Assembly (NCBI GenBank): GCA_034530875.2
Contig: JAVRCJ020000016.1
Location: 131,984 to 195,983 of the forward strand
Reading direction: 5' to 3'
DNA length: 64,000 bases
Source: Nostoc sp. DedSLP01
GTDB lineage: Bacteria; Cyanobacteriota; Cyanobacteriia; Cyanobacteriales; Nostocaceae
The translations under genes were made by a program, and so were the position numbers. Positions 1 to 15,480 of this stretch are shown here, piece after piece (the first letter of the stretch is position 1; each line of letters opens with the position of its first letter). The notes beneath the pieces were generated by a model. The model saw nothing but the letters and a program-made list of their open reading frames with translations, was not told the DNA's origin and made no database searches.

Positions 1-19
1 TTTTGCGCTGATATGTCAT
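1..19 (-). CDS. Possible 5' end (MTYQRK...) of a radical SAM/SPASM splicease-type maturase running off the window edge
   Basis: ATG ACA TAT CAG CGC AAA lies downstream of the YG-motif precursor on the same strand and resembles my recollection of PcpX/PlpX N-termini (MTYRRxSYAVWEITLKC). Only 6 codons are visible. Confidence 0.4.
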
Positions 20-265
20 AAATTAATACTCAATGTCCATTTTAAAAGTTGAGTTTATTCAGTGTTGAGGCTGAGTGAGGGGACTTTTATAATGCTTTTG
101 GGTTGAGCCTAATACAAATCAAATTCGCAATCCTAAAAGGTAAAGAAAGTAAGATTGCATTCATCTGTTCTCAAAAGAGAGATGAATAAAAATAAGTTCA
201 GAGCGTATTACATACAAAGGAAAAGCCCCATAAATCAGCACTCGTAATTAGCTTATGCAACGCTA

Positions 266-395
266 TATAGGAATCATATTTGATTTGGTGAAAAAAATCA
301 GTACACCCAAACAAGGCTTCTTTCCTACTCCCTACTCCCCATTCCCTACTCCCTGCCTACACAAATAATTTCAGTAATCAAACCGGATTCCTATA
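266..395. mobile_element. Small MITE-like/dispersed repeat with TATAGGAATC...GATTCCTATA ends and internal CCCTACT heptamers
   Basis: Terminal inverted repeat. Related ends at ~26405 and 42782-42864, and a similar element at 27663-27766. Confidence 0.6.
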
Positions 396-400
396 TCTGT

Positions 401-835
401 TTATGATAATTGTCGTGGAATAACTGCCCCGTATACCGCCTGTATAGGAGTATCGATGATGGCGCCATATAGGGGTTGTGGGTGCAACGGTGGCTTTGGA
501 CGCGGCCGAGGAATGCATTTAATAATTGATGACTTTCCAGGTTCGATTACAACACCATACAGTGGCTGAATAGTTACATTATCTTTATTTGCAAATCCGC
601 CAACAGCTCCCACTAATTCCTCTTCAGTGAGGTCGTCAAATAGACCTAATTCTTTTAATTCCAATATTTTAATAGAGGCTGTTTCAAATTCTTCTTGAGA
701 AAAATCATAGCCGCCTTCTTCCATGACTTTTATCGCTTCGTCGATTCGATCGCTCATTAATTGAGTGCGAAAAGTTTCGTCTTTGACAAGTCTGATGATG
801 AAATCTTTAACTTTCTCAAAAATTGATAAGGACAT
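401..835 (-). CDS. Nif11-family leader RiPP precursor, spliceotide (PcpA-like) type, with three XYG motifs
   Basis: ATG at 835 follows an AGGAG RBS. The 80-aa Nif11-like leader ends DLTEEELVGAVGG. The 64-aa core has QPLYGVV, QPLYGAI, QAVYGAV and a Pro-rich spacer. Confidence 0.9.
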   Translation of the reverse strand: MSLSIFEKVKDFIIRLVKDETFRTQLMSDRIDEAIKVMEEGGYDFSQEEFETASIKILELKELGLFDDLTEEELVGAVGGFANKDNVTIQPLYGVVIEPGKSSIIKCIPRPRPKPPLHPQPLYGAIIDTPIQAVYGAVIPRQLS

Positions 836-1173: not shown

Positions 1174-1641
1174 TCAACTCTGTAAATATACAGAAGTATC
1201 TGCGACTTGACGTAACTGCTCGGATGCAGAATAGTTATCTGTGATGATTTGCGGACATCGCATACAAGCTGCTTTGCCTTCTTGCTGCCACCAGCGACAA
1301 TCTCGACGGATAGAACAAGGTGGTAGTTGTTCTACCACTGCGGGCAATTTCTCAACAATTCCCTTCGCAAGACGACAGTCCTGGCCATCAAAATGCTGAC
1401 AACCTGATTTTGCGCAGGATGCGGCCGTCCGAAAAATTTCGGCAGGTGTGACTGGGCTAGCTTTTGCTACCAGTTCATCTGTAATGGGCAAAGGTTCTTT
1501 GAGATAAGCTATGCGAGGTGCTGTTACCGTTCCACCAACTATACCGAAGATAACAGTATCTCCAGATTCGGTTTCGGGTCTAGCACTAGGGCAAAGGGTA
1601 GTACGAACGGGAGTTGGATCTTTCATTAATGAATTCTCCAC
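1174..1641 (-). CDS. Cys-rich hypothetical protein (8 Cys), putative metal/Fe-S-binding RiPP accessory
   Basis: GTG-start ORF with CPSA, Cx4C, Cx5C and Cx2C patterns, located between two precursor genes. Confidence 0.75.
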   Translation of the reverse strand: MENSLMKDPTPVRTTLCPSARPETESGDTVIFGIVGGTVTAPRIAYLKEPLPITDELVAKASPVTPAEIFRTAASCAKSGCQHFDGQDCRLAKGIVEKLPAVVEQLPPCSIRRDCRWWQQEGKAACMRCPQIITDNYSASEQLRQVADTSVYLQS

Positions 1642-1786: not shown

Positions 1787-2005
1787 CTAGCTAATCGCTT
1801 GGCGGTCATCTTGCTGTGCAATTATCCCAATTATTATCGGCGGCTTGCATACTATTTTGTTTATACCCACACCACCTGCAACTCCTGCTGATTCTTCATC
1901 AGATAAAGTTTCTACTAATTCTCTGCGGGTTACCGCATCGGCAATGGCATTTTCAATCAGATTGTTGATTTCTATTTGCCCATCGGATTTTTTATGTTCT
2001 GACAT
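1787..2005 (-). CDS. Double-glycine-leader peptide precursor (core VGINKIVCKPPIIIGIIAQQDDRQAIS)
   Basis: GAGG RBS and a leader ending ETLSDEESAGVAGG, which matches the C39-cleaved leader consensus. Confidence 0.8.
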   Translation of the reverse strand: MSEHKKSDGQIEINNLIENAIADAVTRRELVETLSDEESAGVAGGVGINKIVCKPPIIIGIIAQQDDRQAIS

Positions 2006-2107: not shown

Positions 2108-2524
2108 TTATTGAGTTTCTACCATATTTGGCTGTAGTGCGATCGCCTGTCGGTCGCAAACAACAGCAGTTTTCCAATGGACTACATGTTTGCGGGCAAA
2201 GCCTAGCTGATAATTCAATTGAGCATAGTAAGCTTGTTTGTCTGGTGAAAGCGTTCCTTGGGCAAAAAGGACATTCCCGAAATTGACTGCTGCTTCTATG
2301 CAGTTGGGCTGAAATTCCAGAGCTTTTTGATAGTATGCGATCGCTTTCTTTAACTTACCTTGTTGTTGCAAGTTGTAGCATAAGCTCTTACAATTTGTTA
2401 CTTTGAATCCTAATATTTCTTTATATATGAATCCAGCTTCATCCAATTGTCCTGCTTGATGTTTTTGCAGTGCTAACTGAATGAGAGATTGAATTGGCGA
2501 TTCAGAAATATTTTTCGCACTCAT
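2108..2524 (-). pseudogene. Tetratricopeptide-repeat protein, apparently deleted/frameshifted
   Basis: TPR motifs (QQGKLKKAIAYYQKALEFQPN, RQAIALQPN). The last TPR continues in another frame (NLEVILQQ) after the stop. Confidence 0.6.
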
Positions 2525-4989: not shown

Positions 4990-5244
4990 TTAAGCTTCGA
5001 CTGTAGTACTTGTGCTTGGGGACTGACTGCTGGAGGTACTAGCACTAGCACTAGCATTACTAGACTTGGCTTGGGGATTGAATGCTACTGCACTACTACT
5101 ATGAGTTTCTCCATTTGCAGAGGTGGCTGTAGCAATACTTACGCTCCCAGAACCTTCGCCATTGACAAATGATTTAGCTACCACAACAGTGCTGCTAGAT
5201 TGACGAAGAGATACTAGCTGTAATATTCGCCGAGATAAAGACAT
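4990..5244 (-). CDS. Small Ser/Thr/Ala-rich low-complexity protein
   Basis: 84-aa ORF co-oriented with the cluster. Composition resembles the neighbouring secreted peptides, but there is no clear GG leader. Confidence 0.55.
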   Translation of the reverse strand: MSLSRRILQLVSLRQSSSTVVVAKSFVNGEGSGSVSIATATSANGETHSSSAVAFNPQAKSSNASASASTSSSQSPSTSTTVEA

Positions 5245-5481: not shown

Positions 5482-5778
5482 TTATGAGCTAACGGAAGTA
5501 GCTTCAAGGAAGGATTCAGAGCTCTTAGGACTGGTTTTTGTACCGCCAACTACACTGGTGAAAGTGTTGTCACCGGTAGCATCTGCGCTACCTGTTAATG
5601 AAGCTGTGTTGTCTTTGATATTAGGAATGACTTTATAGCTATTGTTTATGGTCTCCTTGATGTTAGCCACAATATTCTTTTTGACAGTGAATTTGCTGTT
5701 GATATTAACAGGGGTGCCAGTACCACCGAAGACTTCTTCTGAAGTATTTTCCAAGTAGTTGAGATCGGAAATAATCAT
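5482..5778 (-). CDS. Short double-glycine-leader secreted protein, Ser/Thr/Asn-rich (EbfG-like in character)
   Basis: AGGAG RBS, 19-aa leader MIISDLNYLENTSEEVFGG, and a 79-aa Cys-free polar, beta-prone core. Confidence 0.85.
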   Translation of the reverse strand: MIISDLNYLENTSEEVFGGTGTPVNINSKFTVKKNIVANIKETINNSYKVIPNIKDNTASLTGSADATGDNTFTSVVGGTKTSPKSSESFLEATSVSS

Positions 5779-6298: not shown

Positions 6299-7078
6299 TT
6301 AAGCGTGTACTAATACCTCCTGCGATCGCAAATTGGCATCCGAGTCTATCTCAATAAAAATTTCGATAGCGTTAACTTGTTGCTTTAACCAATCAGAAAA
6401 TAATTCTGTAATGATTTTTTGGCGCAACTGTTCATCTAATTGGGGTTGAATGACTTCTTCCACCCAAATTAAATGCACTCCTTTGGGAGTTGTAATCGGT
6501 TTGAGAGCTTCTGGTGGTGCAGCAGCAAATACAGCGGCTGCAATCTCTGGACGAAAATCTTTGCGGTATCGGAGTCCTTGATATCCATAAGTCCGGCGGA
6601 GTTCTGGTTCTGGGATATATAAACGAGCAATTTCAGGAAAATTCACTTCACCTTCTTCTAGAGCATAAAAAAGCTCTAAAGCCAAGTCTCGATCCTCCAA
6701 GACAACTTCGTAGGTAACAGCAGCAACGTAATCTAGTTGGCGTTCGTAAAAATACTTTTCGAGTTGAGCAGAAAATAAATGATTACCTAACTTGCGCGCA
6801 AGGATTTTGTTGTAGGCTAATTCTTCAAACTCATTCACAGAAAGATGGTGTTTTTCTAGCCACATCCAAGTGTCTTTAGCTCTAACAAGTTTTTTGGCGA
6901 ACCTTAGGTCATCTCCTTCTTGCTGGAGTTCTTCTGGCGTGACTGTAATTCCTGCCTCTCGAGCTGCTTCGGCAATAATGCTTTGCGATGCTATTGCTTC
7001 GGCGACATCAGGTATTTGGCAAGAAAGTTTAAGACTGTGAATGATGTCTGAAGTGGAAATGTTCAGCTGGTGAGGCAT
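6299..7078 (-). CDS. PpiC/parvulin-like peptidylprolyl isomerase (foldase) associated with the peptidase ABC transporter
   Basis: ELFYALEEGEVNFPEIARLY...PEIAAAVF...PITTPKGVHLIWVEE rotamase-like segment, directly after hlyD. Confidence 0.88.
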   Translation of the reverse strand: MPHQLNISTSDIIHSLKLSCQIPDVAEAIASQSIIAEAAREAGITVTPEELQQEGDDLRFAKKLVRAKDTWMWLEKHHLSVNEFEELAYNKILARKLGNHLFSAQLEKYFYERQLDYVAAVTYEVVLEDRDLALELFYALEEGEVNFPEIARLYIPEPELRRTYGYQGLRYRKDFRPEIAAAVFAAAPPEALKPITTPKGVHLIWVEEVIQPQLDEQLRQKIITELFSDWLKQQVNAIEIFIEIDSDANLRSQEVLVHA

Positions 7079-7142
7079 AACATCATATCTCCAATAATTA
7101 TCTGGGTTGTCTGATTTCGTAATTTCAGTGTTTGCGCTCTAA

Positions 7143-8759
7143 CTAAATCTCTAAACCCCCTTTTTGCAGCTTCTTGAACGGATCTAGAACAAAGTCAATC
7201 ACCCGACGTTGACGAATTATGACTTCAGCATTCGCTGTCTGACCGGCAGTTAATGGAATACGTTTGTTACCGTTTTCGAGATATTGCTGGTCTAAAGTGA
7301 TTTCTAATTCATAGTTTTCAATATTTCCTTGGGGTGTTTGGCTAATTTTGGAGTCCGGAGAAATCCAAGTAACTTTCCCTTGGCCGATGCCATATTCTTG
7401 GAAGGGATAGGCATCAAACTTGACTTTAACTGGCATTCCTAATTTCAAGAAGCCACTATCTTGATTGGGCATATTAGCTTTGAGGATGAAATCTGCATTC
7501 TTGGGTGCGATTTGGGCAATTCTTTGACCGACTTGTACCACTGCTCCTGGCTTAGTGGTAGGCAATTCAAAAATCACCCCATTGATGGGCGATCGCACTA
7601 CTCGCTGCTGAATTTGCAGTCTGATAGATATAATCTGGCTTTTAGTTTGAGCAACTTCTGACTGCACCGCTGTTATTTGTGCCTGTAAGTCCTTTAGCTG
7701 TTCTATATTTTTCATCAAAGCCAGTTTCCCGGCTTGCATCAAACTTTGATAGCTACTTTGCTCTTCTTGCAGTCGCAGTTTTGCTTGTTGGATATCAGAC
7801 TCCAACATCTTAATAGTTACTTGATAACGATTTAACTCTTCTGCCAAGCGCAACTCGGCTTGTTTAATATCTGATACAGCCCTGTTATAGAGTCGTTTGC
7901 TTTCTTGTTCTTCTTTTTTGAGTTCATCGATTTGGGTTGCAGAAACCGCACCATCCTCAACGAGTTTGCTAAAGCGTTCGACTTGCCTAGTATCTAAACC
8001 CAGACGGGTTTGAGCAGATTCGCGATCGTTGCGAGTAATGTCAATCTGCTGCTGTGCTTGCTTGACTAATGCCTGTTTTTCTAACTTTTGCAGGTTATAG
8101 CTACTGAGTTTGGCATCTAGATTTTGCTGCGCCTGGTTAACTTGAGCGATTTTTTCCAATTCTTGGGATTTATTTTGCTGCTCTAAAAGATTATTTGAGG
8201 CTAAAAGTTGATTTTTGAGCAGTTCTAGTTGGGATTGCCGATTTTGTAGCCCTTGCAATTTGGTTTGGACTTGTTGGAGTTCAGTTTGTAGCAGGTCTGA
8301 GTCTAGTTGCAGTAGAACTTGTCCTGGTCTGACTGTATCTCCTTCTTTGACCATAACTGCTTTGACAGTCCCACTAGCTTGAGAGTCTAATTTTTGAGTT
8401 GCGCCTTTAGGTTCTATACGTCCTCTGGCGCTACCAGTTTCATCTACTCGCGAGAGACTTGCCCAAGGCAAAAATAGACCAGCAAAGGCTATGAGTACAT
8501 ACAACAAACTCCGAGTCCAAATTTGAGGTAGCGCATTCAGCAGTCCTTCAGTGCCGTAGTGCAAATCTTGACTGTCATTTTCTGCCTCTGTCTGCTCGTT
8601 AACTTCTACATGTTCCTCATCTTCTTCCTGTATGTAACTTTCATGCCGGTCTGGCTCATCTTGGGAAACTGGGGACGATCTATTAGGATATGGCATAATT
8701 TTTTCTTTTATATCTATAGATAGATGTGGAGATGAGAAATTCCCCATATCGAATCTCAA
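7143..8759 (-). CDS. HlyD-family type I secretion membrane fusion protein (start may be 8696)
   Basis: Single TM, ARGRIEP, VKEGDTVRPGQVL, long coiled coil, VKFDAYPFQEYG. Confidence 0.95.
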   Translation of the reverse strand: MRFDMGNFSSPHLSIDIKEKIMPYPNRSSPVSQDEPDRHESYIQEEDEEHVEVNEQTEAENDSQDLHYGTEGLLNALPQIWTRSLLYVLIAFAGLFLPWASLSRVDETGSARGRIEPKGATQKLDSQASGTVKAVMVKEGDTVRPGQVLLQLDSDLLQTELQQVQTKLQGLQNRQSQLELLKNQLLASNNLLEQQNKSQELEKIAQVNQAQQNLDAKLSSYNLQKLEKQALVKQAQQQIDITRNDRESAQTRLGLDTRQVERFSKLVEDGAVSATQIDELKKEEQESKRLYNRAVSDIKQAELRLAEELNRYQVTIKMLESDIQQAKLRLQEEQSSYQSLMQAGKLALMKNIEQLKDLQAQITAVQSEVAQTKSQIISIRLQIQQRVVRSPINGVIFELPTTKPGAVVQVGQRIAQIAPKNADFILKANMPNQDSGFLKLGMPVKVKFDAYPFQEYGIGQGKVTWISPDSKISQTPQGNIENYELEITLDQQYLENGNKRIPLTAGQTANAEVIIRQRRVIDFVLDPFKKLQKGGLEI

Positions 8760-11700
8760 CTAACTTGGGCTAGTTGTTGTTGATTGAGATAGTAATAATG
8801 ACCTTTTTTAGCGATTAATTCGTCGTGAGTACCGCTTTCTACTAAAACGCCTCGATCTAAAACTAGAATCAAGTCAGCGTTACGGACTGTAGACAGGCGA
8901 TGAGCAATAATTACGCTTGTGCGTCCTTGAAGAATTGTTTTGAGATTGTTTTGAATAATTCGTTCTGATTCAGAATCTAGGTGGCTGGTGGCTTCATCAA
9001 ATAGTAATAAGCGAGGATTACCGAGCAAAGCACGAGCGATCGCTAGGCGTTGGCGCTGTCCGCCAGAGAGCATACCGCCGCCTTCACCAATTTGGGATTC
9101 GTAACCCATCGGTAGTTTTTGAATAAAATCATCGGCCCCAGCGTATTTTGCGGCTTGGATAATTTCTTCTATAGAAGCATTGGGATGAGCGATCGCAATG
9201 TTTTCCTGAATAGTCCCACCAAACAAAAAAGTATCTTGATCTACAACGCCGATTTGCGAACGGAGCGATCGCATAGATATAGTAGTGATGTCGCGGCCAT
9301 CAATGAGTACTTTGCCATCTGTCGCTGGGTATAAACCCAAAATTAATTTACTCAGGGTTGTTTTTCCAGAACCACTGCGGCCGACTACTGCAACCATCTG
9401 TTCTGGCTGAATTTCAAAGTTGAGATTTTCTAATACGTTAGTCTCAGTTTCTGGATGATAGCGAAAGGTAACATTTTGAAAACAAATGTGACCTCGCAGT
9501 TTACCCAAGGACTTGCGAGGTTTAGTTTGTAAGTCTTCTTCTGGTTCGGCCTCCAAGACATCATTAATACGTTCGGTGGAAATCACAATTTCCTGCAATT
9601 GATTCCACAGCATAGACAGCCGTTGAAAAGGACTCAAGACATTACCTACCAACATATTGAAAGCGATTAATTGTCCGATAGTTAGATCGCCATTAATCAC
9701 CTGAGTAGCTCCATACCACAGCAATCCAGTATTCACAAAGGTTTGAATGACGCCACTGATAATTTGCAAATGATTGCCAATTATTTGAGCATTAAAGGCT
9801 TTTTTGACTAAATTATTCAGCAATTCCTCCCAACGCCAGCGCACCGACTGTTCGATTGCTAACGAACGGACGGTACGAATTCCGGTGAGGGATTCTATGA
9901 GATAGCTTTGTTCTTCGGCACCAGCATTAAAAATTTCTCTGGAGATGCGGCGCAAAATACTTGTACTAGCCAGCGCCAAGATAAAAAATGGCGGTACAGT
10001 ACACAGCACGAATAATGACATCCGCCAGCTATAGGAAAACATTAAGCCCAAGTAAACCACCAATGTCAACAAATCCAACAAGATAGAGAGTGTCTCACCG
10101 GTCAGGAATTGCTGAATTTTTTGGTTTTCTTGGATGCGCGAGACTATATCCCCGACGAAACGCGACTCGAAATAGGAAAGTGGCAAACGAAAGGTATGTT
10201 TGATAAAGCCTACTAGTAGGGAAATGCTAACTCGGTTAGCAGTATGAAATAAGAGATATTGCCTGACACCGTTGACAGCGACACCGAACAACCCAAAAAC
10301 AATCATTCCCAAACCGATGGCGTTTAAGGTCGTAACGCTGCGCTGCACAAGTACTCTGTCGAGCAACAGTTGGGTGAATATCGGCGTTACCAGTCCAAAT
10401 AATTGGATGACTACGGAAGCAATAAAAATTTCTATCAGTGTCCGATAGTGAGGTTTGATTAACTCAAAAAATTTCCAAAAGCCTATACTTTCGTCTTTAA
10501 TATTTTTTAGTAAAGGTGTAGGTTGGAGCAATAATGCGTAACCACTCCAACCTGCTTGAAATTGAGCTTTTGTCAGGCTGCGTTGGCCGAGGTCGGGATC
10601 GCATACAATCACCCGCTTTTTTGCGATTTCATAGACAACTATGAAGTGTTTGCCTTCCCAGTGAGCAATTGCAGGTAAAGGTTGTTGTGCTAATTTCTCC
10701 AGTGTCGCTTTTACCGGACGGGTGGAAAAACCCAGGCTTTCTGCTGTTGCTGCCATAGCTTTGAGCGATGCACCATTGCGGTTGACGTTAGTCATATCCC
10801 GCAGGCGATTAATATTAAAATGTTTGCCCCAATAATTACCAATCATTACCAAACAAGCACAGCCACAATCGGCTGCGCTTTGTTGAGCATAGAAGGGATA
10901 GGTTTTAGTGAGGCGTTTCCACCAATGCCCCATTTGCACTTTGGGACTGGGAAAGTAAAAACGCGATTGTTTTGGCTGTTGTTGTGATTGCTGTTCTCGT
11001 TGGGGAAAAGGAATGATTTTAGCTTTTGCAGACTGGGAAGTTTTTTCCTTAGTCCCCACTTCCCAGTTTCCACTCTCGAGTCCCCACTCTCTCAATTCTG
11101 GGAAGTATTCTAGTGCTGTTTGGCTGCGATCGCTTTTTAGAATATAAACAATCGTTGGCTGGGTTACTTGCCAATCTCCTGGTTGTGGTTGGGTCAATAT
11201 TGTGCCTGGGGTTAAAATATATCCTTGAGAATGCCGCAGTTGCCCTCTGTACAATAACCACAATTGCGAATCTGGGAATATTTGGGGACTTATAGAGCCG
11301 ATTTCTAATTGATGTCGCTCAAACACAGATAAGGCTTTGAGCATCCCTGGAACTTGCGATGTATGGTTCGGTAGTTGTGAAGTTTGGCGAGATAACAACA
11401 ACAAATCCCAAAGTTCTGCACGGGCAAAAAGGCGATCGCGAATGTTAGGATGCTTGTCTATCAAGGTTTGCAATGCTTCTTGCCTGAAATAACCAAGTTT
11501 TAAGTTTGTGGAAGCTCTAACTATATAAGGAGTAAAGTTCGCTTCAGGAAACAGAGTCAATTCACCGAAAAAAGACCATGCACCAAAGCTAGCGATTAAA
11601 TTCTCAAAGCTATCTAAGAGTCTGACTTTACCTGTAAGGATAATGTAGATACCAGGATTTGCCTGTGCTGATTGCCAGAACTGCTTTGCCACTGGCGGCT

Positions 11701-11812
11701 CCACCATCTCCATTTCTTCAAGGAAGCTTTGTAATTCTGGTTCTGAAAGCATTGCACCTAAGGTAGATGAGAGCCTTTCACCCAGATGTTGCTCAAAAAG
11801 CACTGGCGGCAT
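8756..11812 (-). CDS. Peptidase-containing ABC transporter (cNMP-binding-like + C39 peptidase + TMD + NBD), HetC/HlyB-like architecture
   Basis: QQSAADCG catalytic Cys, HWEGKHF His, VCDP Asp; Walker A GRSGSGKT, LSGGQ, DEATSHLD; N-terminal IILTGKVRLL..FFGE. Confidence 0.96.
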   Translation of the reverse strand: MPPVLFEQHLGERLSSTLGAMLSEPELQSFLEEMEMVEPPVAKQFWQSAQANPGIYIILTGKVRLLDSFENLIASFGAWSFFGELTLFPEANFTPYIVRASTNLKLGYFRQEALQTLIDKHPNIRDRLFARAELWDLLLLSRQTSQLPNHTSQVPGMLKALSVFERHQLEIGSISPQIFPDSQLWLLYRGQLRHSQGYILTPGTILTQPQPGDWQVTQPTIVYILKSDRSQTALEYFPELREWGLESGNWEVGTKEKTSQSAKAKIIPFPQREQQSQQQPKQSRFYFPSPKVQMGHWWKRLTKTYPFYAQQSAADCGCACLVMIGNYWGKHFNINRLRDMTNVNRNGASLKAMAATAESLGFSTRPVKATLEKLAQQPLPAIAHWEGKHFIVVYEIAKKRVIVCDPDLGQRSLTKAQFQAGWSGYALLLQPTPLLKNIKDESIGFWKFFELIKPHYRTLIEIFIASVVIQLFGLVTPIFTQLLLDRVLVQRSVTTLNAIGLGMIVFGLFGVAVNGVRQYLLFHTANRVSISLLVGFIKHTFRLPLSYFESRFVGDIVSRIQENQKIQQFLTGETLSILLDLLTLVVYLGLMFSYSWRMSLFVLCTVPPFFILALASTSILRRISREIFNAGAEEQSYLIESLTGIRTVRSLAIEQSVRWRWEELLNNLVKKAFNAQIIGNHLQIISGVIQTFVNTGLLWYGATQVINGDLTIGQLIAFNMLVGNVLSPFQRLSMLWNQLQEIVISTERINDVLEAEPEEDLQTKPRKSLGKLRGHICFQNVTFRYHPETETNVLENLNFEIQPEQMVAVVGRSGSGKTTLSKLILGLYPATDGKVLIDGRDITTISMRSLRSQIGVVDQDTFLFGGTIQENIAIAHPNASIEEIIQAAKYAGADDFIQKLPMGYESQIGEGGGMLSGGQRQRLAIARALLGNPRLLLFDEATSHLDSESERIIQNNLKTILQGRTSVIIAHRLSTVRNADLILVLDRGVLVESGTHDELIAKKGHYYYLNQQQLAQVS

Positions 11813-13427: not shown

Positions 13428-13616
13428 ATCGCTCAGAAACTACAATGTACAATTCGTAGCAAAGATTTAGCATCTCGCTTTGGTGGTGATGAGATTATAA
13501 TTTTGCTGGAAGATATTGCAGGCATTAAAGAAGCAATTTCAGTTGCTCAACGAATCTTAGTAAAATTACAATCTCCATTCATACTGAACGACTCGGAAGT
13601 TTTTTTAACCACTAGC
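13428..13616 (+). pseudogene. Internal fragment of a GGDEF (diguanylate cyclase) domain
   Basis: Translates IAQKLQCTIRSKDLASRFGGDEIIILLEDIAGIKEAISVAQRILVKLQSPFILNDSEVFLTTS. No start codon; not in the ORF track. Confidence 0.85.
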
Positions 13617-15480
13617 AGCGTTCCCTATTTTCTACTGTAAAAGGATTATCGATAGCCACATAAATCGAGTGAGTGGGAAGAGAACTGTGCATTTCATCAA
13701 TGTCGTGAAAGCGGGAGATGAGATTGGCTTTGCAACGCCACTGCGGTTGGCGAAGTTGATGCAGGAGTTTTGAGCTATCTGGCTCTATATGTGCGTATGT
13801 ATCTAAAGTAGTTCTGACTTCTGCTAAAAGTACTCGTTCATCCACCAAACCAGCGACACCGAAGGCATTAATCAGCCCCAACAAATGATTGTTGAAAAAG
13901 TAATAACCCAGGCGTTCGTCAGCAGCAACGGCATTTTTAGACACCGTATGGCTTCTGTTAGTAAAGCCAGGGAGGATGCCATCTAAATGTTCCCGAAAAG
14001 CCGGGTGACAGTAATAATCTTGATTATCGCGGAAAAAGAAGCGGTAAGGATAACCATCTTGGAGTTGCAAAACACTATTTTGTTGATGCGCTTCTAGCCC
14101 TATGCCATAAGTAAAGTAAAGCCAAAGAATCGGCTCTAGGGAAATTTTCAGGTAACGGCAAAACCAATCCCGGCTAACTTCACTTGTGGGGCGTTGTTCG
14201 CGTTCTGCTAGTAATTTGATAATATTTGTCAAGCGCGAACCATCATAAAACATTGCATCTTGACATAGAGATATTAAACAAGTGGCATCAGGAGCAGGAT
14301 TGTTTGGGAAAACATTTTCTCGTAATAGAGAAGCGAAAGCACTACTGGGTTCGCCGTCTATTTTCAAGGTGATGTAGGCAGGCTCTCGAATAATATTAAA
14401 TTGTGGGAAGCGATCGCGCAATTCCTGACCGACTTGAGTATTCAATAATTGATAGAGTTCTACCGCCCGTTTTAACTCTTTATAAGTAATAGCCCGTATC
14501 GAGTTAGTAATCTTGACGTTCAAAGAGAGTTTGAGCATGAACGCTGCATCAGGATGATAAACTGTACGAATTGAAGAAGTAGGCATAAAAGCTCGCCCTT
14601 GTAACCCCAAATCTTCCAGCAATCCTTGATTCAATAACTGCTGCACTGCTGGTTGACGCCGCACAAAATTTGCCTGCCAAGGATGCATCGGTAACAAAGC
14701 ATATTCATCTGTGCGGCAATAATTAATCTTGAAGTTTTCATCCACTTGAGTATCCGCCAACAGTTCTGCTTTAATCAGTTCTGTAGCTGTTTGTGGCAAT
14801 GCTGAATTTGACTCCACTATCGACTGATGGGCGCGAAAGTAGTGCAGAGGAAAACAACCTTTCAATTCTGGAGAATAAATAGCTAATTCATTCTCAGCAA
14901 ATTCTGGACGGCTTTTTGGTGTTGGGTGTAAAGGATGCCCAAAAACTAGGGCTTGTTCGGTTTCAATAAAATTACTTTTAAAAGCATAAAGAATATCTGT
15001 ATCCTGTCGCCGCTGCCGCACAAACTGTTCGATATTGCCACAGCTTTCTACTACTCGCCGCAGCAATTCCTCCTGGTGTCCATTATTACCATCAACCAGG
15101 GCTAACTCTTTTATCAGTAGAGTAACTAAAGTGATGCAATCAACTTCTAAAATAGCAGTTTTATCCGCTGGTTGATAATAAATTGGAAAGTAAAATAAAT
15201 GCCGTCCAGTTAGCGAATAATAGCGTAAACCAGCCAATATTTGTATATTTTGGTGCTCTAAGTAACAACGTATTAATACTTCAGTTTTAGTACGATTAAA
15301 TACTTCATTTATACCATCGCCGATCGCTTCAGTATTGGCTTTGATAATTTTGCCCGTACCAGTTTCTCGCAGGTAACAATTGAAAAAGCTTTGGATTGTT
15401 GCTTGTTCGGCAATTTCTTTGTCAGTGCGATTTATAGTCAGTTGTGACGTTGCAGTGGTAATAATGGTTTGCTGTATCAT
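13612..15480 (-). CDS. IucA/IucC-family NRPS-independent siderophore synthetase
   Basis: GHPLHPTPKSR, HPWQ, PTSSIRT, KITNSIR, EAHQQNS and RDNQ motifs. Confidence 0.95.
   Translation of the reverse strand: MIQQTIITTATSQLTINRTDKEIAEQATIQSFFNCYLRETGTGKIIKANTEAIGDGINEVFNRTKTEVLIRCYLEHQNIQILAGLRYYSLTGRHLFYFPIYYQPADKTAILEVDCITLVTLLIKELALVDGNNGHQEELLRRVVESCGNIEQFVRQRRQDTDILYAFKSNFIETEQALVFGHPLHPTPKSRPEFAENELAIYSPELKGCFPLHYFRAHQSIVESNSALPQTATELIKAELLADTQVDENFKINYCRTDEYALLPMHPWQANFVRRQPAVQQLLNQGLLEDLGLQGRAFMPTSSIRTVYHPDAAFMLKLSLNVKITNSIRAITYKELKRAVELYQLLNTQVGQELRDRFPQFNIIREPAYITLKIDGEPSSAFASLLRENVFPNNPAPDATCLISLCQDAMFYDGSRLTNIIKLLAEREQRPTSEVSRDWFCRYLKISLEPILWLYFTYGIGLEAHQQNSVLQLQDGYPYRFFFRDNQDYYCHPAFREHLDGILPGFTNRSHTVSKNAVAADERLGYYFFNNHLLGLINAFGVAGLVDERVLLAEVRTTLDTYAHIEPDSSKLLHQLRQPQWRCKANLISRFHDIDEMHSSLPTHSIYVAIDNPFTVENRERC

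What the first reader, a model, noticed from the sequence alone, without database searches (positions are those of the whole stretch)
1..835. Spliceotide-type precursor with three predicted tyramine-excision sites, maturase apparently just off the window
Seen: a Nif11 leader ending in GG, then a 64-aa core with QPLYGVV, QPLYGAI and QAVYGAV, and an ORF starting MTYQRK at base 19 downstream. Known: PlpX/PcpX radical SAM spliceases excise tyramine from XYG motifs of Nif11 precursors to give alpha-keto-beta-amino acids, and such ketoamides act as protease-inhibitor warheads. Inference: a core with up to three ketoamides (two from Leu, one from Val), possibly a multivalent inhibitor exported by the local C39 transporter.
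Basis: partly seen in the sequence, partly recalled or inferred. Interest (0 to 1): 0.85.

Follow-up and report, generated by a model that had tools for sequence, protein, structure and literature searches.

The report
Three-site cyanobacterial spliceotide gene cluster
A cyanobacterium carries the known three-gene system that cuts tyramine out of Tyr-Gly sites to make protease-blocking keto-amide residues, here on a peptide with three such sites, so it is an ordinary, untested member of a described family, with an unexplained small gene pair beside it.

Summary
Confirmed, and ordinary. Window 401-835 (-) encodes a 144-aa Nif11 precursor whose 64-aa core holds three Q-[PA]-X-Y-G-[VA]-[VI] sites (Leu, Leu, Val). 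The ORF leaving the window at base 19 is an intact 421-aa radical SAM/SPASM enzyme above the TIGR04103 cut-off. An unannotated 56-aa PcpY homologue follows it. Precursor, enzyme and helper are orthologues of the characterised type I spliceotide system PcpA/PcpX/PcpY (46%, about 81% via a near-identical proxy, 18/26 in the helix). Three sites are not unusual: 18 of 99 related precursors have three or four YG, and multi-site splicing is published. Whether all three sites, the Val site especially, are spliced is untested. Export by the nearby C39 transporter is plausible but not shown; the genome has nine such peptidases with the catalytic Cys. The unexplained part lies just upstream: a Cys-rich protein with no family or solved-fold match, tightly paired with a Tyr-free GG-leader peptide. 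The scan has reported this system, and that pair as a separate system, on other DNA before.

The parts
401..835 (-). Spliceotide precursor A (PcpA orthologue): 80-aa Nif11 leader ending GG plus 64-aa Pro-rich core with three XYG sites
   Evidence: 46% identical (65/142) to PcpA of Pleurocapsa sp. PCC 7327, P0273
548..568 (-). Site 1, QPLYGVV (Tyr93 codon 559-557); aligns with the first MYG site of PcpA
458..478 (-). Site 2, QPLYGAI (Tyr123 codon 469-467); aligns with the second MYG site of PcpA
422..442 (-). Site 3, QAVYGAV (Tyr135 codon 433-431); would give a Val-derived ketoamide
   Evidence: Val precedes YG at 9 of 193 sites in related cores
1..19 (-). First 19 bases of splicease X, a 421-aa radical SAM/SPASM enzyme that continues off the window (whole gene G000:C16:130737-132002). 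The helper Y gene, 56 aa, PcpY/PlpY homologue, starts 3 nt after the stop of X and lies wholly outside the window (G000:C16:130563-130733)
   Evidence: X; TIGR04103 816.3 bits over cut-off 725; all 12 Cys present in 79 of 79 orthologues; 81% identical (335/414) to the L053 enzyme. Y; 18/26 identical to PcpY P0278, E 1e-13; homologue in 79 of 80 X loci
1174..1626 (-). Cys-rich 150-aa protein (155 aa from the upstream GTG at 1641); database label 'nitrogen fixation protein'; frequent companion of type I spliceotide loci but not required for splicing
   Evidence: (no family); beside X in 23 of 80 loci
1787..2005 (-). 72-aa peptide with a helical leader, GG, and a P-I-I-I-G-I-I core motif without Tyr; partner of the Cys-rich gene
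6299..11812 (-). PpiC-like protein, HlyD adaptor and C39 peptidase-ABC transporter: candidate leader protease and exporter, link inferred only
   Evidence: catalytic Cys, His and Asp motifs present; PpiC orthologue at 80% or more in 22 of the 26 closest loci

Best explanation
A type I (three-component) spliceotide pathway, orthologous to pcpA-pcpX-pcpY. Y docks its helix on X and activates it, and bridges to the Nif11 leader of A (known for PcpXY/PlpXY; inferred here by orthology). [quoted passage not shown] Two Leu sites are very likely spliced and the Val site probably, perhaps less completely, so the product is likely a mixture of one- to three-ketoamide forms. A C39 peptidase-transporter then cuts after GG and exports the 64-aa Pro-rich core (inferred). 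The ketoamides most likely act as warheads against Ser/Cys proteases (inferred from three synthetic and two Rheinheimera spliceotides). Shown here: genes, order, intactness, orthology, motifs. Not shown: expression, splicing, cleavage, activity.
For: X passes the equivalog TIGR04103 and not the sister TIGR03913 (426 bits, cut-off 591.75). X keeps CxxxCxxC and all SPASM cysteines, each present in 79 of 79 orthologues. A and Y match PcpA and PcpY directly (P0273 and P0278 read the same as the sequences in the supplement of PMC11414181, by eye). A-X-Y order recurs: A in 77, Y in 79 of 80 X loci. All three sites fit the family consensus: Q at -3 in 153, P or A at -2 in 176, V/A/I at +2 in 179 of 193 YG sites. 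This is the only protein found in the genome scan with that motif, and X and Y are single-copy. PcpA is spliced at two sites and needs PcpY (PMC11414181); the XYG motif can direct several events in one precursor (PMC10373908).
Against: YG does not guarantee splicing: PcpA has three YG by sequence but two reported splice sites, and the DYG of RcsA stayed unmodified (PMC11626197). PlpXY is reported to act naturally on Met and Leu sites; I found no passage on a natural Val site in what I could read. X departs from residues conserved in 90% or more of orthologues at 4 positions (A79R, R298N, L301I, V362L), effect unknown. The A-X spacer is 381 nt with a repeat element, against 67-68 nt in 17 of the 26 closest loci. 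No final spliceotide had been isolated from a native host as of the 2022 review.
Confidence: 0.93

Rival explanations
1. Same system, but only one or two of the three sites are spliced (most likely the Val site, 12 residues after site 2 and 9 from the C-terminus, is skipped or partial), so there is no trivalent product.
For: PcpA 2 of 3 YG and RcsA 1 of 2 YG spliced. Val is rare before YG (9 of 193). Most close Nostoc relatives have only two sites.
Against: The unspliced YG of PcpA appears to be the IYG that lacks the Q-[PA] context and is followed by Pro (my inference), whereas site 3 has the full context. QAVYGAV recurs in L002 and L055. A third site at this position is kept in L002, L021, L028, L029, L032, L038. 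PlpXY tolerates many X residues and motif multiplication.
Confidence: 0.35
2. The adjacent C39 transporter serves the RTX-repeat proteins and the small GG peptides next to it; the spliceotide is cut and exported by another of the genome's peptidase-transporters, or stays on its leader in the cell.
For: RTX-repeat genes and small GG-leader ORFs lie between A and the transporter. 9 of 10 C39-ABC proteins in the genome have the catalytic Cys. The PcpA-like locus L053 has no C39 hit within 6 kb. In Rheinheimera the co-clustered C39 domain cut the graspetide but not the spliceotide precursor (PMC11626197).
Against: The PpiC end of the transporter unit stays upstream of A-X-Y in 22 of the 26 closest loci; its catalytic residues are intact; the leader ends in a canonical GG cleavage site.
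Confidence: 0.4
3. The locus is decaying and makes no product.
For: The upstream TPR/GT41 gene is cut to a 138-aa remnant; repeat elements sit on both sides of A; four unusual substitutions in X.
Against: A, X and Y are full-length and in frame; against the closest locus L002 they are 74%, 94% and 86% identical; no terminator-like site was found in the A-X spacer.
Confidence: 0.07
4. The Cys-rich protein and the 72-aa peptide are part of the spliceotide pathway (extra tailoring of A, or a Tyr-free decoy or regulator of X), rather than a separate peptide system that often sits in the same cluster.
For: 15 of 25 non-self matches to the Cys-rich protein in a 401-genome sample lie within 3 kb of a splicease (my tally). 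The peptide's P-x-x-hydrophobic-G-hydrophobic-hydrophobic motif parallels P-X-Y-G-V-V, and 1 of 28 such cores has YG.
Against: 57 of 80 X loci lack it; PcpXY and PlpXY work without it. It occurs in 6 genomes where no splicease was found with this query and in 5 of 5 non-cyanobacterial plasmid loci with no X homologue within 4 kb. The peptide never occurred without the Cys-rich gene in the 80 X loci and its profile does not match Y.
Confidence: 0.2

Closest known systems
PcpA/PcpX/PcpY, type I spliceotide pathway of Pleurocapsa sp. PCC 7327 (PMC11414181)
   Same: Gene order A-X-Y; long Nif11 leader of the same subtype; 144-aa precursor with a Pro-rich spacer between sites; precursor 46% identical, Y helix 18/26, X 81% to the near-identical L053 enzyme.
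   Different: Three sites in full consensus context (Leu, Leu, Val) against two Met sites plus an out-of-context IYG; Cys-rich gene and 72-aa peptide upstream; C39 transporter unit nearby; nothing tested.
PlpA2/PlpA3, PlpX, PlpY of Pleurocapsa sp. PCC 7319 (Morinaka et al. 2018, seen through PMC5995677, PMC11002830, PMC10533398)
   Same: Same kind of enzyme (IPR026482; TIGR04103 here), Y directly downstream of X, LYG sites.
   Different: One precursor with three sites instead of several; no PlpD-like epimerase among the neighbouring proteins scanned (15 proteins).
Type II binary spliceotides RhaAX, RcsAX, RasAX of Rheinheimera (PMC11626197, PMC11414181)
   Same: XYG chemistry; source of the measured protease-inhibition data.
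   Different: They have no Y protein and RhaA has a short leader; this locus has Y and a Nif11 leader.

Membership tests
Type I spliceotide pathway (PlpAXY / PcpAXY) | Radical SAM/SPASM splicease of the PlpX family | tested here: met
   TIGR04103 816.3 bits, cut-off 725; PF04055 and PF13186; 12 of 12 Cys conserved; 81% to the PcpX-like L053 enzyme
Type I spliceotide pathway (PlpAXY / PcpAXY) | Nif11-type precursor with a GG leader end | tested here: met
   TIGR03798 and PF07862 above cut-off; 46% to PcpA
Type I spliceotide pathway (PlpAXY / PcpAXY) | XYG motif(s) in the core | tested here: met
   three sites, all in family consensus context
Type I spliceotide pathway (PlpAXY / PcpAXY) | Small Y activator gene directly downstream of X | tested here: met
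   56-aa ORF 3 nt after X, E 1e-13 to PcpY
Type I spliceotide pathway (PlpAXY / PcpAXY) | Loss of C8H9NO at the XYG site | not testable with these tools
   needs co-expression and LC-MS
Type I spliceotide pathway (PlpAXY / PcpAXY) | Protease inhibition by the ketoamide product (common property, not a defining gene feature) | not testable with these tools
   reported for other spliceotides
Binary spliceotides (types II-V) | No Y protein; activating helix in the leader | tested here: not met
   a separate Y gene is present
GDL-motif peptide radical SAM family TIGR03913 | Score above the family cut-off | tested here: not met
   426.1 bits, cut-off 591.75

The most novel reading that the evidence does not exclude
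The three sites are all spliced, giving a natural three-warhead peptide with a Val-derived ketoamide; and the upstream pair is a second, undescribed RiPP system: a 150-aa metal-binding protein (eight invariant or nearly invariant Cys plus invariant Arg66, Arg107, Trp112; confident model with no match among solved folds) that binds and modifies the P-x-x-hydrophobic-G-hydrophobic-hydrophobic repeats of its own GG-leader peptide, a Tyr-free counterpart of the splice motif, found across several phyla.
Probability: 0.25. Interest if true: 0.65.

Novelty: new member of a known kind. Interest (0 to 1): 0.22.

Why it matters
For the finding itself, little: it adds one complete, testable type I spliceotide locus to hundreds known. 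It is a handy natural test of how many sites one splicease processes on one peptide, in what order, and whether Val is used natively; and a possible lead on which protease removes the Nif11 leader, since no native spliceotide product had been isolated as of the 2022 review I read. The neighbouring Cys-rich protein and its peptide are the better discovery target: 979 representatives at 50% identity, a misleading database label, no family model and no solved fold match.

Tried and rejected
1) Y looked shortened at its C-end; rejected, since close orthologues end at the same place. 2) The 72-aa peptide or the Cys-rich protein as the Y partner; rejected: the real Y is downstream of X, and the peptide profile has no similarity to Y (probability 0.1%). 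3) Three sites as a rare feature; rejected. 4) Other substrates for X in the genome: a leader HMM gave two weak further hits, one without YG and one with no consensus site. 5) Family or fold for the Cys-rich protein: none in NCBIfam or Pfam, PDB sequences, Foldseek (best E 1.1) or VIA-align (no Z of 2 or more in 48,161 chains); this does not show that the fold is new. ESM Atlas gave no family for it and only sub-0.9 leads for the peptide. No relative found in viral contigs with one query. 6) Complex prediction of the Cys-rich protein with its peptide was never run, so there is no verdict on binding. 7) RNA runs: no RNA holder listed; no evidence either way. 8) Promoter and terminator scans were at chance level. 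9) Morinaka et al. 2018 and Scott et al. 2022 are not held, so I could not check whether they already report three-site natural precursors, Val sites, or the Cys-rich gene. Searches for 'spliceotide' with 'nitrogen fixation protein' (the one hit refers to Nif11), for TIGR04103 and for Nostoc splicing (one review listed, not read) showed no paper on this locus or the pair. 10) The tree of X is the quick version; it suggests three sites plus the Cys-rich gene in early-branching members of this clade and two sites in the derived Nostoc group, but many forks are open, so I draw no firm order of events.

Full report
Observation. The precursor is as described. It lies on the - strand, 835 to 401, with a ribosome-binding site before the ATG. 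It has 144 residues: an 80-residue Nif11 leader that passes TIGR03798 and PF07862 and a 64-residue core with Tyr93, Tyr123 and Tyr135, each in a YG. Chance is excluded: 14 of 200,000 shuffles of the core gave three YG, and a scan of all 50-400 aa open stretches of the genome found the motif Q-[PA]-[LMVI]-Y-G-[VAI]-[VI] in this protein only.

The part off the window. The ORF at base 19 continues to C16:130737 as a 421-aa protein. It scores 816.3 bits on TIGR04103, 'nif11-class peptide radical SAM maturase 3', cut-off 725, and fails the sister family TIGR03913. Its 12 cysteines, the CxxxCxxC motif and the SPASM set among them, are each present in 79 of 79 orthologues aligned (1 of the 80 loci, L045, was left out because my ORF filter missed its gene). 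Three bases after its stop begins a 56-aa ORF that matches PcpY over the activating helix, 18 of 26 residues. X and Y are single-copy; the next hit to X in the genome is at 23% identity.

Identity with the characterised system. A scan of one genome per species found 463 stretches encoding relatives of X and kept the best 80; the closest are from Nostoc species at 90-94%. Of these 80 loci, 77 hold a homologue of A and 79 a homologue of Y. Locus L053 (Hydrococcus rivularis) is a close stand-in for the pcp cluster: its A and Y fall in the same 90% clusters as the Pleurocapsa sp. PCC 7327 proteins P0273 and P0278, which read the same as PcpA and PcpY in the supplement of PMC11414181 (by eye), and its X differs from the printed PcpX at about a dozen positions (by eye). 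The window's X is 81% identical to it; A is 46% identical to PcpA, with sites 1 and 2 aligned to the two MYG sites. This meets every sequence-level feature of a type I spliceotide pathway.

How it most likely works. [quoted passage not shown] From PMC9811515 (passages): all but C1 of the Tyr is lost and a new C-C bond forms to C1 of the preceding residue; Met and Leu were the native residues in the Pleurocapsa systems, others are tolerated; three synthetic spliceotides inhibit proteases; native end products had not been isolated. From PMC11626197 (passages): two Rheinheimera spliceotides inhibit elastase, chymotrypsin and cathepsin B only when spliced. By orthology I infer the same chemistry here, then cleavage after GG and export, giving a Pro-rich 64-mer with up to three ketoamides. 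Gene content and motifs are shown; splicing, cleavage, export and activity are inferred.

Is three sites special? No. A leader HMM collected 99 precursors in 78 of the 80 loci: 24 have one YG, 57 two, 17 three and 1 four; 17 of 78 loci have a core with three or more, and 14 of 99 keep three or more under a stricter context filter. These loci are related, so the counts are not independent. Reviews state that the motif can direct several events in one precursor and that multiplied motifs were processed (PMC10373908 passage; PMC5995677 part 1 of 2). Against a trivalent product: PcpA has three YG but two reported sites, and the DYG of RcsA was not modified. For it: all three sites here have the consensus context seen across 193 sites, whereas the extra IYG of PcpA does not (my inference). 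Val precedes YG at 9 of 193 sites, with the same QAVYGAV in L002 and L055, so it is uncommon but not unique. I put full three-site splicing at about 60%.

Export. The C39-ABC transporter at 8756-11812 has the catalytic Cys, His and Asp motifs. The PpiC-like gene of the same unit is within 6 kb upstream of X at 80% identity or more in 22 of the 26 closest loci; the transporter itself mostly lies beyond the flank fetched and was not tested directly. But RTX-repeat genes and small GG-leader ORFs lie in between, the genome has 10 C39-ABC proteins, 9 with the Cys motif, L053 has none within 6 kb, and a co-clustered C39 domain did not cut the Rheinheimera spliceotide precursor. The link is plausible, not shown.

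Signs of wear. The TPR ORF at 2108-2524 is a 138-aa remnant of a TPR plus GT41 gene of about 1030 aa in relatives. The A-X spacer is 381 nt with an inverted-repeat element, against 67-68 nt in 17 of the 26 closest loci; no terminator-like site was found in it. X departs from four otherwise conserved residues. None of this breaks A, X or Y.

The unexplained neighbours. Upstream of A lie a Cys-rich protein (1174-1626) and a 72-aa peptide (1787-2005). The protein is labelled 'nitrogen fixation protein' in databases but hits no Pfam or NCBIfam model and no PDB sequence. It has 979 representatives at 50% identity. In 111 aligned sequences Cys71, Cys84, Cys121, Arg66, Arg107 and Trp112 are invariant and five more Cys are at 90% or more. 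AlphaFold2 gives a confident model (pLDDT 93.4, pTM 0.85) with no match in two fold searches, which does not prove a new fold. The peptide family has a helical-looking leader, an invariant GG and a P-I-x-x-G core, often repeated; 1 of 28 cores has YG. The two genes travel together: 19 of 22 Cys-rich genes in X loci, 21 of 25 in the phylum sample and 56 of 80 in metagenome loci have the peptide within 700 nt, and no X locus had the peptide alone (27 of these loci trained the HMM; outside the training set 4 of 7, 10 of 13 and 56 of 80). The pair favours spliceotide clusters: in 401 genomes, 15 of 25 non-self matches lie within 3 kb of X, 2 are at contig ends, 2 are in genomes with X elsewhere and 6 are in genomes where X was not found with this query (my tally). 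Yet 57 of 80 X loci lack it, and 5 of 5 non-cyanobacterial plasmid loci examined (of 11 records matched) have it with a small ORF beside it and no X within 4 kb; the cyanobacterial peptide HMM did not hit any of the 6 plasmid loci, so the likeness of those small ORFs is by eye only. My best reading is a separate two-gene peptide system in which a Cys-ligated metalloprotein binds or modifies its own precursor; binding was not tested.

Verdict. It is a new member of a known kind, and the scan has met the same trio before (e1-6548662). The primary papers (Morinaka 2018, Scott 2022) were not available, and their supplements may already list this kind of precursor or the Cys-rich neighbour. Interest 0.22; the Cys-rich pair deserves its own follow-up.

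Noticed in passing
window 1174-1626 and 1787-2005 (-): Cys-rich protein mislabelled 'nitrogen fixation protein' plus a GG-leader peptide with a Tyr-free P-I-I-I-G-I-I motif: a tightly linked, widespread pair with no family model and no solved-fold match; candidate undescribed RiPP system.
   Followed up: partly
L075:4446-4688 (+): One member of the Tyr-free peptide family has P-F-I-Y-G-I-I, a possible splice site, next to a splicease: a link between the two motif types.
   Followed up: no
window 2108-2524 (-): 138-aa remnant of a TPR plus glycosyltransferase-41 gene that is about 1030 aa in close relatives (L006, L015) and in pieces in L002 and L003.
   Followed up: partly
window 265-396 and 945-1117: Two small elements bounded by inverted repeats flank the precursor gene; 219 and 35 blastn hits in the genome (partly short tandem repeats). 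They look like miniature transposons (label recalled, not tested).
   Followed up: partly
window 4990-5244 and 5482-5778 (-): Small Ser/Thr-rich ORFs beside the PpiC-HlyD-C39 unit; the 98-aa one has a short leader ending GG and resembles cyanobacterial tandem 'CTB' peptides (name recalled; no library hit). Likely cargo of the transporter.
   Followed up: partly
L036, L037 (upstream of X): Four tandem Nif11 precursors with acidic, Asp/Ile-rich cores before one splicease.
   Followed up: no
L041, 643 to 173 nt upstream of the X start: A precursor with four YG sites in consensus context, more than the window's.
   Followed up: no
L107 and L108: Cys-rich protein with a roughly 90-aa N-terminal extension, next to an NHLP-leader precursor (in L108 its core carries a P-I-G-L-V motif) and facing a splicease; L108 also has TOMM genes.
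   Followed up: no
L029: Spliceotide genes interleaved with what look by eye like microviridin-type precursors and ATP-grasp ligases (labels recalled), recalling the Rheinheimera multi-clusters of protease inhibitors.
   Followed up: no
window 13612-15480 (-): An IucA/IucC-family siderophore synthetase gene upstream of the transporter unit.
   Followed up: no
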